The notes below the pieces were generated by a model. It was given only the letters and a program-made list of their open reading frames with translations. It did not search any database and had not been told where the DNA came from. From a virus (taxonomy: Duplodnaviria; Caudoviricetes): a stretch of 39,845 nt of DNA. The position numbers were made by a program, and so were the translations under genes. Location of the stretch: IMG/VR virus record IMGVR_UViG_3300038829_000102, positions 1 through 39,845 of that record. One strand, written 5' to 3'. This document shows, piece after piece, positions 2 to 35,455 of the stretch; the first letter of the stretch is position 1; each line of letters opens with the position of its first letter.

Positions 2-619
2 CGTAGGGGTCGGCACCGATGCATAGAGATTGGCCAGCCAAGCGAGATCGATGGGGCTTCCCTCGCCCACGTAGATCTCCCCAGGGCCCCTACCGTAGGG
101 CTTACTCGGAAAGAAGTAGACTCGGCTGAGGTTTGCGCACGTGAGGTCTGCCGGGATTTTGTAGTGGGTGCGGATCAGGTTCCAGGTTCTAGGCCAGTCT
201 GCCGGCAGAACGGGCGCAGAGATCGCGAGTATCAGGCGGTAGCTACCGGCCGAATGGGTGCCGTGACAGGCGTAGCGAAGCCCCGAAAGGCCCTCTGCTA
301 GGTCCGCCATCGCTTCAGGCGCGGGGTTATCGAGGTCAAACACGGCAAGTGTGATCGCGCGCACGTTAGCGTCGGCGCGACGCTCACAATCGGCCGCGTA
401 ATCGGCCGGACTCCATGCCTCAACCTTTTTGTGCTCGCAATGGTGCCCAAGGCAGTCACCTTCCCTAGGACGCTCGGGATCGGGTTCCTTGCAGGCGGTT
501 ACCTTGAAACTCGAAAGCTCGGAAACGAGATCGTCCCAAGACACTTCGACGGGCTTAGGGTCGTTATCCCCAGGCCCGTCGAAAAGTGCGATCCGATAAA
601 GGGGTTCACCTTGCGCCAT
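2..619 (-). CDS. AEP-type primase (N-terminal part of a probable primase/helicase), truncated by the window edge
   Basis: Not in the ORF track; translated by hand from ATG 619 with no stop to the edge: MAQGEPLYRIALFDG...TLAVFDLD...ACHGTHSAGSYRLILAIS...DLTCANLSRVYFFP. Has hhhDxD plus HxTxS and YRL motifs typical of phage AEP/VirE-N primases; AGGAG upstream at 631-635. Confidence 0.75.
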   Translation of the reverse strand, partial: MAQGEPLYRIALFDGPGDNDPKPVEVSWDDLVSELSSFKVTACKEPDPERPREGDCLGHHCEHKKVEAWSPADYAADCERRADANVRAITLAVFDLDNPAPEAMADLAEGLSGLRYACHGTHSAGSYRLILAISAPVLPADWPRTWNLIRTHYKIPADLTCANLSRVYFFPSKPYGRGPGEIYVGEGSPIDLAWLANLYASVPTPT

Positions 620-658
620 GTGTAGCATGACTCCTGAACTGTGCAACGTGTGTGCCGG

Positions 659-761: not shown

Positions 762-1418
762 CTAAGGAATGATCCCCCGCGCGCGGGCCCAATCGATCCA
801 ATCGGGATGGGTCTCTTTCGCCATCGTGACGAGGTCCGCGATCGAGGCATCGGGGTTGCTGTCCACCCATGCCAGCGACTCGGGGCATGCGCCCAAAAGC
901 CAGAGCATACGAGAAAGAGGAGATTTCACCCCGAGGTCCGCGCCCTGGAGGTTCGCGCCCCGGAGGTTCGCGCCCGTGAGGTCCGCGCACCGGAGGTTCG
1001 CGCCCCGGAGGTCCGCGCCCCGGAGGTTCGCGCCCCGGAGGTTCGCGCCCCGGAGGTTCGCGCCCGTGAGGTCCGCGCCCCGGAGGTTCGCGTCCTGGAG
1101 GTTCGCGCCCCGGAGGTCCGCGCCCCCGAGGTTCGCGTCCTGGAGGTTCGCGCCCAGGAGGTTCGCGCCCCCGAGGTTCGCGTCCTGGAGGTTCGCGCCC
1201 CGGAGGTTCGCGCCCAGGAGGTTCGCGTCCAGGAGGTTCGCGCCCAGGAGGTTCGCGCCCAGGAGGTCCGCGTCCTGGAGGTTCGCGCCCCGGAGGTTCG
1301 CGCCCCGGAGGTCCGCGCCCTGGAGGTACGCGCGCTCGCCTTTGGTCTCGGCCGAGTATCGGGTTTCCAGCCACAGCGCATGTGCCGCAAGTATTTTATT
1401 CAGTTTTGCAGGGTTCAT
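762..1418 (-). CDS. Pentapeptide repeat protein
   Basis: Long A(D/N)LxG/D repeat run after a typical '[12 protein letters not shown]...GERAYL' N-cap; ATGA overlap with the upstream gene. Confidence 0.92.
930..1330. repeat. 15-bp tandem repeat array encoding the pentapeptide repeats
   Basis: Repeated (g)aggt(t/c)cgcg(c/t)cc(c/a/t)gg-like units; this explains the spurious overlapping ORFs in other frames. Confidence 0.9.
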
Positions 1419-1798
1419 GTGGTCATTATCCTCGTTACGGGTTTTCGGTTTCGTTCTCTTCGTCGAATTCCGGATCGCACGCAGTCACGGCATGCGCAAT
1501 CGATGTAGCCTGTTTCGGTGCAGATCTGAGGGACCTTATCCTCAGCGTAGGCGGACTCGATTCGCTCGCTACATTCAGCGCAGTAGAGATCGGGATCTTC
1601 GTAGTTCACATCGGCCGTGCAAATGAACGCACGGTGGGTGCCTGCCTCGTGCGCTTCACGCCGATCGGTGCTCGCACACTCGGGGCACAGAACCGCGGGA
1701 TCTCGATTCTCCGCTGTGGCCACGATGTAGAACAGAGGGTAACTGCCCAGCGACGTGTACTTATCGAGTTTCGGAATGTGAGGGAAGCTTTTAGCCAT
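1415..1798 (-). CDS. Cys-rich hypothetical protein (probable Zn-binding)
   Basis: [10 protein letters not shown]...GSYPLFY...CPEC...CAEC...CACRDC. Start placed at ATG 1798 because the upstream in-frame extension runs through the structured region. Confidence 0.6.
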
Positions 1799-1915
1799 GT
1801 CAGTGCCCCAAGAGATAATCGGAAATACGGCCGTTGTCGTTACTCGGAATGTGGCTACGCCGCGCGACCAGTACAGAACCCGTCCACCCACAGCGCTGTA
1901 TGTTTCGTGGTTTTC

Positions 1916-2142
1916 ATTTTGCAGAAATCTCGATAGGTGCCCCGCGTTATGCAAGCCCCGCGGTATCGCCTTCACGTCAGGATTGACCAATATGCCGGGT
2001 TTCTCTTCGGGCCCGTGAGCTAGCACGGGGAGTGTTTCCGGTGTGGCTTCCTATCGAGACCTCTGCAAAATTGGGGAGTGACTAGCTCCCCACCACTGCT
2101 CCGGGCGCTACGGTCGTCAGCCGTAACCAGCGGGTACCCGGA
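1916..2142 (-). ncRNA. Candidate structured early RNA (22-bp closing stem with internal hairpins/pseudoknot, preceded by two hairpins)
   Basis: Inverted repeat 1916-1937 / 2050-2071 matches 20/22, and both mismatches become G-U pairs only on the minus strand. Additional hairpins at 2072-2092 and 2100-2142. Confidence 0.55.
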
Positions 2143-2145
2143 ATC

Positions 2146-2187
2146 TGTATATCACGCGACCGCGGTAGGCAATGCCTACAATATAAT
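2146..2187. promoter_or_regulatory. Candidate early leftward promoter overlapped by a dyad operator
   Basis: Minus strand TTGCCT...TGaTATACA; palindrome GTAGGC-AAT-GCCTAC at 2165-2179; TATAAT on the plus strand at 2182-2187. Confidence 0.4.
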
Positions 2188-2247
2188 TATCCGATCGGGC
2201 CCTCGGATGTTGCTTCGGGGATATTACGGTTCATTTTGCCGGGTTTT

Positions 2248-2546
2248 GTTCTATGCTTGAAAAACGCAAGTGGTTGAATGAGGCCCTGAACAGACGAGCA
2301 TGGATCAGACCCCGGTACAGCGCAAGCTTATGAGATAACAGCGGAAAAGAGCCTTTGTTCTATGTTCTAGGCTGTTCCGGGTGGATCCGTAACCTATATA
2401 GGGGATCCTGATCTCTCCATACTACCTTTGTCTACCTCTCTACTTCTCTTCTAAAGAGATCTCTAAAGATCAACATAGAACATAGAACAGTAGGCAAATA
2501 TCCCCGAGATTTCCAATGCTTATGCCGTTCTATGCTGTGTTCTATG
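2248..2546. repeat. GTTCTATG iteron-like repeats in both orientations (candidate replication origin)
   Basis: Exact copies at 2248, 2357, 2527, 2539 (+) and 2474, 2481 (-), in an AT-richer, gene-free interval. Confidence 0.6.
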
Positions 2547-2613
2547 CTGGCGCGCGCGCGAGTAGAATCAGGCGCTTGCGCTGAATAGACCTAGAACGCG
2601 ACATTTATGTCCG

Positions 2614-2658
2614 TATGGTCACGTATCGTCACGTAGTGTATGGTCACGTATGGTGCAG
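2614..2658 (+). repeat. 10-bp direct repeats TAT(G/C)GTCACG
   Basis: tatggtcacg 2614, tatcgtcacg 2624, tatggtcacg 2639, degenerate tatggtgcag 2649; TTGACA follows at 2691-2696. Confidence 0.7.
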
Positions 2659-28984: not shown

Positions 28985-29392
28985 GTGTTGACTCTTACGA
29001 TCAGCCTGCTTCTCGTATCCCCTCCGGGGGATATCTGCGATTTGTACCCTGAGCGGTATACCGCCCCACGGTATAGCGACGAGTGTGCCGGCCAAATCGT
29101 GTGCCCGTTCACCCGTTTTGGCCGGGTATGCGTCTGCGCGCCTCCGGTGATCAGTCTGGGCTCGTGGGACCCGCGCGAGTCGCCGGCCGAGTGGTCGCGC
29201 TCAAGCTACGGAACGCCGGCTTCGTTCGGGGCGACCGATAAGCTAGAGGTGCTGGAGAACATCAACGTGGACGCCTTCCGGGCGGCCGTGCGAGCCCTGG
29301 AGGCCGGCTTTCTGGACAGCGGCCAATACTTCCTGCTGAAGGTCGCCGAGAACGTGAAGAAGGAAATTCGAAAGATCGAGGCCGTCCGATGA
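28985..29392 (+). CDS. Hypothetical protein with hydrophobic N-terminus and Cys cluster
   Basis: ORF ends in an ATGA overlap with the next gene; start uncertain. Confidence 0.55.
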   Translation: MLTLTISLLLVSPPGDICDLYPERYTAPRYSDECAGQIVCPFTRFGRVCVCAPPVISLGSWDPRESPAEWSRSSYGTPASFGATDKLEVLENINVDAFRAAVRALEAGFLDSGQYFLLKVAENVKKEIRKIEAVR

Positions 29393-29736
29393 ACACCCTC
29401 CCCTCCGACTCGAAAGAACGCAAGGGCATCCCGATCGCGACCGGATGCCTTTACTACTTCCCGGCCGCGCTCGCCGAGGTTGCCAAGCTCTCCCGAATCG
29501 GGAACGAGAAACACAACCCCGGCCAACCGCTCCACCACGCCCGCGGTAAGAGCGTGGATCACGCGGACTGCATCGTGCGCCACCAGCTTGACGCCGGCAC
29601 CATCGACCCGGACACCGGGCTCGACCACGCCGTGATGGTGGCGTGGCGCGCGCTCGCCCAGCTCCAGGAGCTTCTGGAGTCGCGCGGGGCTCCGCTGGCG
29701 CGGGGCGCACGTTTGCCGAACAAGGAGACTCTATGA
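29389..29736 (+). CDS. dATP/dGTP diphosphohydrolase-like protein (DUF5664 / dGTP_diPhyd_N)
   Basis: RKGIPIATG..YFPAALAEVAKLSRIGNEKHNPG.PLH..RGKS.DHADCIVRH...AWRALA signature. Confidence 0.82.
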   Translation: MNTLPSDSKERKGIPIATGCLYYFPAALAEVAKLSRIGNEKHNPGQPLHHARGKSVDHADCIVRHQLDAGTIDPDTGLDHAVMVAWRALAQLQELLESRGAPLARGARLPNKETL

Positions 29737-31054: not shown

Positions 31055-31555
31055 TTAGAGACGCCCACAACTATGCAAGAAGATGCCCACGGCGTCAAGT
31101 GTGTTGTGGTCCCTCGCGCCTACACTGATGATGTTATCGAGTTCCTCCGGACGTAGTTTCTTCCGAATTCGCTCCGTCATGATCTTCTTGGGAACCTGCC
31201 CCTTCCAGTCGGATGGGTAGTAGAACGCCTTCACCGGCCACCAGCCCGAGAGCGCCCCTACCACGCCCGACAGCTCGATAAGGTCGTTCGGGTCTACGTT
31301 TTGCTCGGCCGCTACGTAGCGCTCGCGCGGGTAGTAACGCGGAACCTCCACGTGGAGCTGAAGCTCTTGAGGGAATGGCACGGTAACGCGCGCCCACTCC
31401 CAGACGGCTACCGCCATTGCGCGCCACGCCTTGGGCCCTCGCGCCGTCCTTTCCGGGTTGATGATCAGGGCGGCCTTCGTGAGCGCCGGCTGGGTGCCGA
31501 GCACGCCCAGCGCGACGCCGCACCAGCGCAGGCCCGGATCGATGGCGATGTTCAC
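31055..31555 (-). CDS. RuvC-like Holliday junction resolvase
   Basis: IAIDPG...GVA, HVEVP, PSDWKG..PK, HN.LDAVGI; GTGA overlap. Confidence 0.8.
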   Translation of the reverse strand: MNIAIDPGLRWCGVALGVLGTQPALTKAALIINPERTARGPKAWRAMAVAVWEWARVTVPFPQELQLHVEVPRYYPRERYVAAEQNVDPNDLIELSGVVGALSGWWPVKAFYYPSDWKGQVPKKIMTERIRKKLRPEELDNIISVGARDHNTLDAVGIFLHSCGRL

Positions 31556-32148
31556 AGGTACCTTCCCGGCATCGAAAAGCGCCAGAGGAACCGGAACCGG
31601 GATAGGAACTCGCGCTCGGCCTTCGCGGGCGACCAGCCCAGGCGATCGAACCAACCCAGCTTCCAAGGCGCGTCGAGCCGGCCGGTGGCCGTGGTCTTGT
31701 GCCAGTCCGGGTGGATCGGCGACTTGAGGTAGAACGCCTCGGTACCGAGAATCTCCGAGTCCATCGCCGTGACCTCTGGGGGCTCGGTCGGCCGGAGATC
31801 AAACGCGACGGCGATCACGGTCTGGAGCCGCGCTTCGGCATCACGGTAGCCGCCGAGCTGGGCCTGATGCTTCACGGGGCGCGAAACATCGCCCAGGTAC
31901 GCCTCCGATGCGTCATGCAGGAGCCCCCAGCGTTGCGTCTCCAGTCCGAAACCGCGATCCTCCAGCTTCCACGAGACGCGGACACAGTGCTCGGCGACGC
32001 TGTAGAAGCGGTCCACGTGCCCCACGTAACGGCAGAGCATGGAAAGTGCGCGGGCGATATCTAGGATGTCCACCGCGCCCGGATCGGCGTCAAGGGGGAA
32101 GAACTTCTGCCCGCGGTACGTCTGAATCCAGTGCTTGATGTTGCTCAT
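31552..32148 (-). CDS. HD-domain phosphohydrolase (YfbR-like 5'-deoxynucleotidase)
   Basis: WIQTY.G..F...DIARALS..CRY.GH...FYSVAEH...LLHDASEAYLGD..RPVK. Confidence 0.88.
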   Translation of the reverse strand: MSNIKHWIQTYRGQKFFPLDADPGAVDILDIARALSMLCRYVGHVDRFYSVAEHCVRVSWKLEDRGFGLETQRWGLLHDASEAYLGDVSRPVKHQAQLGGYRDAEARLQTVIAVAFDLRPTEPPEVTAMDSEILGTEAFYLKSPIHPDWHKTTATGRLDAPWKLGWFDRLGWSPAKAEREFLSRFRFLWRFSMPGRYL

Positions 32149-32399
32149 GACTTGACCTCCATCACTACAAGCCACTCGTTCAGACCTACGCCGACGTTGA
32201 ACGATGGGCCGACCTGCACCTTACGGTATTCAATCGAGTTGCTGTAGGCAATGCGCACCTTTGCCTTATCATCTCGAATGTCAAGGTCCGCCGCAAGGTT
32301 CAGGTAATCGCCTGTAGGTAGCCCGATGAACGCGGGATAGTTGCCCGTGTCCCGTTTGTAGCGGAACACCAAGTCCATGAATGTTTCGCTCATCTTCAT
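32145..32399 (-). CDS. Hypothetical protein
   Basis: GGAGG RBS; ATGA overlaps at both ends. Confidence 0.65.
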   Translation of the reverse strand: MKMSETFMDLVFRYKRDTGNYPAFIGLPTGDYLNLAADLDIRDDKAKVRIAYSNSIEYRKVQVGPSFNVGVGLNEWLVVMEVKS

Positions 32400-35384: not shown

Positions 35385-35455
35385 TTGCAGGGGCCGGAAT
35401 CGAACCGGCGATGGCGCCTTATGAGGGCGCTGCCTTGCCGCTTGGCTACCCTGCG
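35385..35455 (-). tRNA. tRNA with CAT anticodon (initiator-Met-like acceptor stem), CCA not encoded
   Basis: CGCAGGG-TA-GCCAAGCGGCAAGGC-A-GCGCC-CTCATAA-GGCGC-CATC-GCCGG-TTCGATT-CCGGC-CCCTGCA-A forms a complete cloverleaf with a C1:A72 mismatch. Confidence 0.9.

What the first reader, a model, noticed from the sequence alone, without database searches (positions are those of the whole stretch)
1916..2142. Large structured RNA at the head of the early transcript: 22-bp stem enclosing a pseudoknotted domain
Seen: ATTTTGCAGAAATCTCGATAGG (1916-1937) and CCTATCGAGACCTCTGCAAAAT (2050-2071). The two mismatches are G-U pairs on the minus strand only, pointing to selection on an RNA of that strand. The enclosed 112 nt contain CCGG..CUC-CCCGUG/CACGGG..GAG..CCGG, GUCA/UGAC and CCGCG/CGCGG, and the last loop (GGCUU) can pair with the 5' AAGCC. 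Two more hairpins (2072-2092, 2100-2142) precede it, just after a candidate promoter. Established: stems of this length are RNase III substrates. Inference: a phage ncRNA excised from the first transcript made, for example an anti-defence decoy, ribozyme or regulator. I do not recognise the family.
Basis: partly seen in the sequence, partly recalled or inferred. Interest (0 to 1): 0.75.

Follow-up and report, generated by a model that had tools for sequence, protein, structure and literature searches.

The report
Phage early-leader RNase III stem
In the gene-free stretch ahead of an uncultured phage's replication genes, a real 22-base-pair stem likely marks a site where the host enzyme RNase III cuts the phage message and would release a 134-base RNA that matches no catalogued family, but the knotted fold and any job of that piece remain untested.

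Summary
The 22-bp stem (2071-2050 with 1937-1916) is real: the longest in the window on either strand, above all 300 shuffles (best 16). It sits in the non-coding leader of the minus-strand replication arm; the GTG-2026 extension is absent from the three closest homologues. Its length and central register fit E. coli RNase III rules at the two most restrictive positions, predicting a 134-nt product (2059-1926). The enclosed 112 nt fold no better than shuffles (164 of 200 as stable); the 5-bp pseudoknot is possible but competes with a P1 extension, and the promoter is unconfirmed. New here: the flanks also pair (2160-2130 with 1891-1859), hinting at a ~300-nt unit (mixed statistics). No homologue was found in Rfam, cultured phages, plasmids or related loci, so covariation is untested; the closest relatives could not be fetched. 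Best reading: an RNase III processing stalk in an early leader, cargo function unproven. The scan noted similar long-stem leader RNAs on other phage DNA before.

The parts
2050..2071 (-). 5' arm of the 22-bp stem (P1)
1916..1937 (-). 3' arm of the 22-bp stem; its last two bases begin an ATG (1917-1915)
1938..2049 (-). Enclosed 112 nt: weak helices 2041-2038/1998-1995, 2032-2024/2017-2003, 1987-1984/1979-1976, 1963-1959/1946-1942; possible 5-bp pseudoknot 2049-2045 with 1957-1953, competing with 2047-2045/1941-1939
   Evidence: not more stable than shuffles
1926..2059 (-). Predicted RNase III excision product, 134 nt, 10-bp closing stem and 2-nt 3' overhang (cuts 2060|2059 and 1926|1925)
   Evidence: inference from register scan, with rules from PMC1540722 (passages)
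2072..2092 (-). Hairpin A (7 bp, CUAG-containing loop), directly before P1; followed by a short U run that is the start of P1
   Evidence: 2 of 200 shuffles as stable; not called as a terminator
2100..2142 (-). Hairpin B; its outer helix competes with the long-range flank pairing
2130..2160 (-). 5' strand of a candidate outer helix (10+6+4+7 bp, 6 G-U)
1859..1891 (-). 3' strand of the candidate outer helix; a further 5 bp join 2096-2092 to 1911-1907
1855..1917 (-). 20-codon ORF starting inside the 3' arm; weak Shine-Dalgarno, no homologue; probably not a gene
1415..1798 (-). First gene of the early arm: 127-aa Cys-rich protein of a phage family without a named function
2175..2225 (.). AT-rich block with a palindrome (2189-2208), unchanged in one low-depth contig of a lake relative; candidate promoter or operator region

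Best explanation
The 22-bp stem is likely a processing stalk for host RNase III in the 5' leader of the phage's early replication transcript, which would be cut on both strands at the central G-U pairs. Shown: the stem, its non-coding position ahead of the first gene (start 1798) of the arm carrying polymerase and helicase, and its fit to part of the E. coli recognition rules. Inferred: transcription from a promoter somewhere between about 2140 and 2260; double cleavage at 2060|2059 and 1926|1925; release of a 134-nt looped-out RNA; and a trimmed mRNA whose new 5' end stays paired to the upstream fragment through the lower 10 bp (and perhaps the outer helices), which would set the stability or translation of the first early genes as RNase III sites do in T7. 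The enclosed 112 nt are read as a cargo whose own function is unproven.
For: Stem far beyond chance. 22 bp equals the full two-fold RNase III footprint (PMC3867540 figure legend; PMC1540722 passages). In the central register, with 10 bp on each side, the pair next to the cut and the third pair are A-U/U-A in both half-sites and the fourth pair is G-C or C-G; 3 of 15 registers meet the four A-U positions and only this one has 10 bp on both sides. Long-range duplexes over more than 100 nt are normal RNase III targets (PMC11780869 passages). Most T7 transcripts carry such sites (PMC3867540 passage; PMC8708148 passage). Non-coding status. Minus-strand preference is clearer in the outer helix (-40.8 versus -27.7 kcal/mol on the plus strand). 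The phage record holds no RNase III gene of its own (record 88% complete).
Against: The second pair after the cut is C-G in both half-sites where E. coli prefers A-U, and the distal box is canonical at one position of one half only (distal-box placement partly recalled). 12 of 22 pairs are A-U, so four A-U hits at the centre have about a 9% chance. The host is unknown, so E. coli rules may not apply. No promoter was found. No covariation could be measured. 0 of 25 related phage loci (TerL about 40-60% identical) carry a comparable stem upstream of the small terminase gene, apart from an AT-rich repeat array in L088 (some loci may not reach the leader), so the clade does not need it.
Confidence: 0.45

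Rival explanations
1. The excised 134-nt RNA is the point of the element: a stable, pseudoknotted small RNA made at the start of infection that binds a host protein, for example as a decoy against a defence system.
For: A pure processing site needs no 112-nt loop. The proposed knot has H-type geometry (5-bp and 5-bp stems, 1-nt connector, A-rich 6-nt loop; read from the sequence), and this pairing arises between these two segments in 1.8% of shuffles. The slot is where related phages keep small accessory early genes. Phage decoy RNAs exist (vsgRNA preprint 10.64898/2026.06.01.729453, passages).
Against: The insert folds no better than shuffles; the knot strand prefers a P1 extension (0.9); no homologue in 183 related loci, 32 whole records or 69 motif hits; no Rfam resemblance at E up to 10 except two chance-level hits; no 11-nt antisense match from the insert to the rest of the genome.
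Confidence: 0.25
2. The unit is larger and acts in cis or uncut: a ~300-nt RNA (2160-1859) with paired ends, or a put-like antiterminator or attenuator built from hairpins B and A, the U run and the short ORF, that controls read-through into the long replication operon.
For: Nested flank pairing of 27 bp in 31 nt at probabilities 0.94-0.99, stronger than all 99 background windows of the genome (-40.2 versus -39.7 at best), flank interaction reached by 8 of 300 shuffles; best flank duplex reached by 2 of 300 shuffles on minus, 30 of 300 on plus; 305-nt fold z -5.8. HK022 put is a double hairpin near an early promoter (PMC8632103 passage).
Against: The total flank fold is no better than shuffles (135 of 300; 177 of 300 with only the 3' flank shuffled); the boundaries were chosen after seeing the fold; the plus strand also gives z -5.2; the outer helix excludes hairpin B's outer stem and needs a start site upstream of 2160. 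No terminator was called at hairpin A, and the short ORF has a weak ribosome site and no homologue.
Confidence: 0.17
3. A DNA-level element: a miniature inverted-repeat transposon remnant, an invertible segment or a pair of protein-binding sites, with RNA folding as a by-product.
For: 156 bp with 22-bp terminal repeats is a typical size for such elements (recalled); the outermost AT could formally be a 2-bp target duplication; each arm holds an AGA-NN-TCT palindrome; both strands fold alike; it is absent from distant relatives.
Against: Single copy in the genome (up to 3 mismatches) and no copy of the arm in viral contigs, cultured phages or plasmids. The two mismatches fall on the central dinucleotide, where recombination sites must match (established knowledge). 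Contigs of three runs span it in one orientation with no strand-changing joint (same study as the source, and contigs drop rare variants). No longer target duplication is seen.
Confidence: 0.1
4. Chance or an assembly artefact.
For: Single lineage, no homologue.
Against: 0 of 300 shuffles reach 22 bp; identical in a second assembly and spanned by contigs of three runs.
Confidence: 0.03

Closest known systems
RNase III sites of phage T7 transcripts (R1.1; PMC8708148 and PMC3867540, passages) and the lambda N leader (RNase III regulation named in PMC8708148; details recalled)
   Same: Long helix of RNase III size in a phage early transcript, ahead of a gene; partial fit to proximal-box rules.
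   Different: R1.1 is a 49-nt stem with a small loop; here a continuous 22-bp helix loops out 112 nt, so a double cut would free a separate RNA. Cleavage is not shown here.
Processing stalks of stable RNAs: 16S rRNA flanking duplex (PMC8632103, passages); B. subtilis small cytoplasmic RNA precursor (title in the reference list of PMC11780869; otherwise recalled)
   Same: Distant arms pair around a folded domain that RNase III releases.
   Different: The released RNAs are conserved, catalogued and functional; this insert has no family, no homologue and no fold signal above shuffles.
HK022 put RNA (PMC8632103, passage)
   Same: Two hairpins spanning about 70 nt near the head of an early transcript.
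   Different: No sequence test was possible; here a long stem follows directly, and no downstream terminators were shown.
Phage RNA decoys of defence systems (vsgRNA preprint, passages; RNA anti-CRISPRs recalled)
   Same: Small phage-encoded RNA in an accessory early region.
   Different: Those copy a host guide or repeat; this RNA matches no Rfam family, and the stem lacks the bulge and nexus of Cas9 guides (features recalled).
Bacterial miniature inverted-repeat elements such as Neisseria Correia elements (recalled; one search gave no usable paper)
   Same: About 150 bp, long terminal inverted repeats that fold into an RNase III-type stem.
   Different: Single copy, no clear target duplication, no partner transposase seen.

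Membership tests
Bacterial RNase III substrate | Double helix of about 22 bp with 11 bp per half-site | tested here: met
   22 contiguous pairs, probabilities 0.89-1.0; length rule
Bacterial RNase III substrate | A-U or U-A at proximal-box positions 2 and 4 (no antideterminant) | tested here: met
   Both half-sites of the central register (rule from PMC1540722)
Bacterial RNase III substrate | Preferred pairs at proximal-box positions 1 and 3 and canonical distal box | tested here: inconclusive
   Position 1 G-C in one half and C-G in the other; position 3 C-G in both; distal box partly met in one half; E. coli rules, host unknown
Bacterial RNase III substrate | Transcribed and cleaved with 2-nt 3' overhangs | not testable with these tools
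   Needs RNA data or an in vitro assay
Any Rfam 15 family (riboswitches, ribozymes, CRISPR repeats, tracr, 6S, SRP, Y RNA, C4 and others) | Covariance-model match | tested here: not met
   Only a tRNA at gathering score in the window; best E 4.7 and 8.9 in 1750-2350
Hammerhead ribozyme | CUGANGA core, stem II, CGAAA, cleavage triplet | tested here: not met
   One CTGANGA (loop of hairpin B); the only CGAAA lies over 200 nt away, outside the stem; no Rfam hit
tRNA-like or tmRNA | Acceptor stem, T arm, tag frame | tested here: not met
   ARAGORN finds only tRNA-Met at 35385-35455
Retron msr-msd | Adjacent reverse transcriptase gene | tested here: not met
   No RVT_1 match in the record (record 88% complete); adjacent genes are not RTs
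Miniature inverted-repeat transposable element | Multiple copies | tested here: not met
   host genome not available
Miniature inverted-repeat transposable element | Target-site duplication and empty site | tested here: inconclusive
   Only a formal 2-bp AT; no close relative to show an empty site
Invertible DNA segment | Both orientations present; matching crossover cores | tested here: not met
   One orientation in contigs (weak test); the arms differ at the central two bases
Conserved structured ncRNA family | Homologues with covarying pairs | tested here: inconclusive
   No homologue reached; the model rests on one sequence and the closest relatives were out of reach
HK022 put-like antiterminator | Suppresses downstream termination in cis | not testable with these tools
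   Needs a transcription assay

The most novel reading that the evidence does not exclude
Host RNase III cuts a 134-nt H-type pseudoknotted RNA of an undescribed family out of the first phage transcript (possibly out of a ~300-nt precursor with paired ends), and this RNA acts in trans on a host protein, such as a defence or transcription factor, in the first minutes of infection.
Probability: 0.2. Interest if true: 0.75.

Novelty: new member of a known kind. Interest (0 to 1): 0.37.

Why it matters
RNase III sites in phage early transcripts are known; if that is all this is, it adds one example from an uncultured lineage. If the looped-out piece is a stable RNA with its own target, it would show a phage using the rRNA-style excision route to deliver a new small RNA at the start of infection, a cheap way to counter or steer the host. 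The predicted ends (2059 and 1926) make that directly testable with one transcript and one enzyme.

Tried and rejected
Homologue searches without result: Rfam; blastn of 1880-2200 in 50,697 phage records, no match at E 1; plasmids, one 43-nt chance-level match at E 0.2; nhmmer over fetched loci; exact patterns from the inner hairpin and from the arm in viral contigs, 0 hits each; two gapped motif patterns gave 45 and 24 loci, none a homologue by the model (best E 0.19, L265, which by eye lies antisense to a coding frame). The single-sequence model R1 found nothing convincing in 183 of the 196 loci then held (2 self loci and 11 re-fetches left out; best non-self E 0.04, a 51-nt hairpin in L022) nor in 0 of 32 whole virus records; its sensitivity is low and no positive control exists. 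Loci of relatives: terminase scans reached only phages at about 63% identity or below, plus the window's own phage, though proteins at 75-93% exist in sources without retrievable DNA. Sequencing runs: no RNA holder listed. A lake run covers 2175-2399 in one depth-2.2 contig with 16 loose letters before 2175 and does not cover the element; this shows nothing about absence. Rejected: translation from GTG 2026; the 20-codon ORF as a gene; antisense targets; retron, tmRNA, hammerhead; resemblance of the inner hairpin to CRISPR repeats and of the stem to a Cas9 repeat-antirepeat duplex (recalled leads, no Rfam support, no bulge or nexus). A z-score scan of relatives' inter-arm regions was cut at 16 of 17 loci and mostly picked a different, repeat-rich element. 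Literature searches showed no paper on this element; the library lacks most subscription papers and no supplements were read, so motif tables of large comparative screens (for example PMC8040213, search listing only) were not checked.

Full report
Setting. The window is a whole 39,845-base virus record, linear, estimated 88% complete, held by groundwater DNA runs. The plus strand from about 2720 carries terminase large subunit, portal and major head protein; the minus strand carries DNA polymerase, helicase, a methyltransferase and an HD phosphatase. The finding lies between the two arms, upstream of the first minus-strand gene (1798-1415). No cultured phage is close (terminase at most 27% identical) and the host is unknown. 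That this arm is the first transcript made is an inference from its gene content.

The stem. Arms 2071-2050 and 1937-1916 form 22 contiguous pairs on the minus strand with two adjacent G-U pairs at positions 11 and 12. It is the longest such stem in the window on either strand, 0 of 300 shuffles reach it, and it is identical in a second assembly. Contigs of three runs span it in one orientation (same study as the source). The G-U argument alone is weak (about 1 in 4 by chance if both changes are transitions), and both strands of 1900-2160 fold about equally.

The insert. The 5-bp knot has plausible H-type geometry and a 1.8% chance for these two segments, but 16% for any two unpaired segments, and its GCC prefers to extend P1 (0.9). 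Folding programs ignore knots and many true RNAs are not more stable than shuffles, so this leaves the domain unproven rather than refuted.

Coding status. The three closest homologues of the first gene (58-68% identity) begin at the Met matching 1798, so the frame from GTG 2026 is not conserved, although the protein collection holds the 203-aa call for this genome (P0001). A 20-codon ORF starts at 1917 inside the 3' arm, with a weaker ribosome site than 14 of 14 confident genes and no homologue.

RNase III test. PMC1540722 (passages) gives an 11-bp half-site with a 4-bp proximal box: A-U or U-A required next to the cut and at the third pair, A-U preferred at the second, G-C at the fourth. PMC3867540 (passages) gives 22 bp for the full two-fold substrate. 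Scanning 15 registers, 3 meet all four A-U positions, and only the central one has 10 bp on both sides; there the fourth pairs are G-C and C-G, the second pairs are C-G (not preferred) and the distal box is only partly met. The cut would fall around the two G-U pairs and free 2059-1926. This is modest support: about 9% by chance, and E. coli rules. Long-range duplexes are normal targets in B. subtilis (PMC11780869, passages), and T7 transcripts are routinely processed this way.

A larger unit. Folding 2161-1857 showed that the flanks pair in nested order: 2160-2151/1868-1859, 2149-2144/1877-1872, 2142-2139/1882-1879, 2136-2130/1891-1885 and 2096-2092/1911-1907, with six more G-U pairs on the minus strand. 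For: -40.8 versus -27.7 kcal/mol on the plus strand, stronger than 99 of 99 background windows, 8 of 300 and 2 of 300 shuffles in two interaction tests, z -5.8. Against: the total flank fold is ordinary (135 of 300), the plus strand gives z -5.2, and the test was post hoc. It needs a start site upstream of 2160 and so conflicts with a promoter just ahead of hairpin B. No minus-strand sigma-70 match was found. The block 2175-2225 is unchanged in one low-depth contig of a relative and may hold the promoter or an operator.

Homologues. None was found: Rfam, phages and plasmids, four pattern scans of viral contigs (with 79, 80), a one-sequence covariance model over 183 loci and 32 records. 0 of 25 related loci show a comparable stem in the same slot apart from an AT-rich repeat array. 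All reachable relatives are distant; terminases at 75-93% identity exist but their DNA could not be retrieved. Covariation, the decisive test, is therefore open.

Mechanism. Most likely (0.45) host RNase III cuts the stalk in the early leader, trimming the message and leaving its new 5' end paired, which tunes stability or translation of the first genes; the insert is released as cargo of unknown value. Next (0.25) the released RNA is itself the functional product. A larger or cis-acting RNA (0.17), a DNA-level element (0.10) and chance (0.03) follow. Shown: stem, position, non-coding status, partial rule fit. Inferred: transcription, cleavage, product, function.

Comparison and novelty. It works like T7-type RNase III sites and rRNA-type processing stalks; it is a member of no catalogued RNA family, and tests for retron, tmRNA, hammerhead, mobile element and invertible segment were not met or inconclusive. 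Earlier notes of this scan describe similar long-stem RNAs in phage transcripts on unrelated DNA; no look-alike of this sequence was on record. Those notes were not checked and are no evidence here. Seven literature searches showed no description of this element; supplements were not read. Verdict: a real, lineage-specific long-stem leader element of a known kind with an uncatalogued insert; interest 0.37.

Noticed in passing
window 2240-2560: Separate repeat-rich element with TAGAAC/GTTCTA repeats and a 22-nt inverted repeat (2356-2377/2468-2489); relatives carry their own 15-64 bp inverted repeats around 80-140 nt in the same slot (L088, L098, L111, L120, L136, L144). Candidate replication origin or packaging region.
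   Followed up: partly
window 2613-2654; L093, L098, L110, L111, L112, L120, L136: Short TGGTCAC-containing repeats upstream of the small terminase gene are conserved in seven related loci whose terminases are only about 47-63% identical; candidate packaging or genome-end signal.
   Followed up: partly
window 762-1418 (-); L128 815-1606: Pentapeptide-repeat gene of 15-nt units; the second assembly is 135 nt (9 units) longer.
   Followed up: partly
window 2072-2092 and 2012-2029 (-): Both hairpin loops hold the CUAG palindrome and the two hairpins are complementary over about 10 nt, so a kissing or strand-exchange contact is possible; GUCA/UGAC also recurs in the loops of hairpins A and B.
   Followed up: no
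window 496-655 (-): Strongly folded stretch (z about -5.7 in a coarse scan) at the start of the large ORF that runs off the left end, including the hairpin 545-583.
   Followed up: no
window 1415-1798 (-): Cys-rich early protein of a widespread phage family (285 viral stretches) with no named function; the PHROG label 'DNA ligase' looks doubtful for a 127-aa protein.
   Followed up: partly
window 35385-35455 (-), 29389-29736 (+), 31552-32175 (-): A tRNA-Met inside the replication arm, a dATP/dGTP diphosphohydrolase and an HD nucleotide phosphatase; possible nucleotide-pool or base-modification module.
   Followed up: no
L093 5010-5169 (-): Unrelated strongly folded non-coding stretch (z about -8.5) between the conserved repeats and the small terminase gene.
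   Followed up: no
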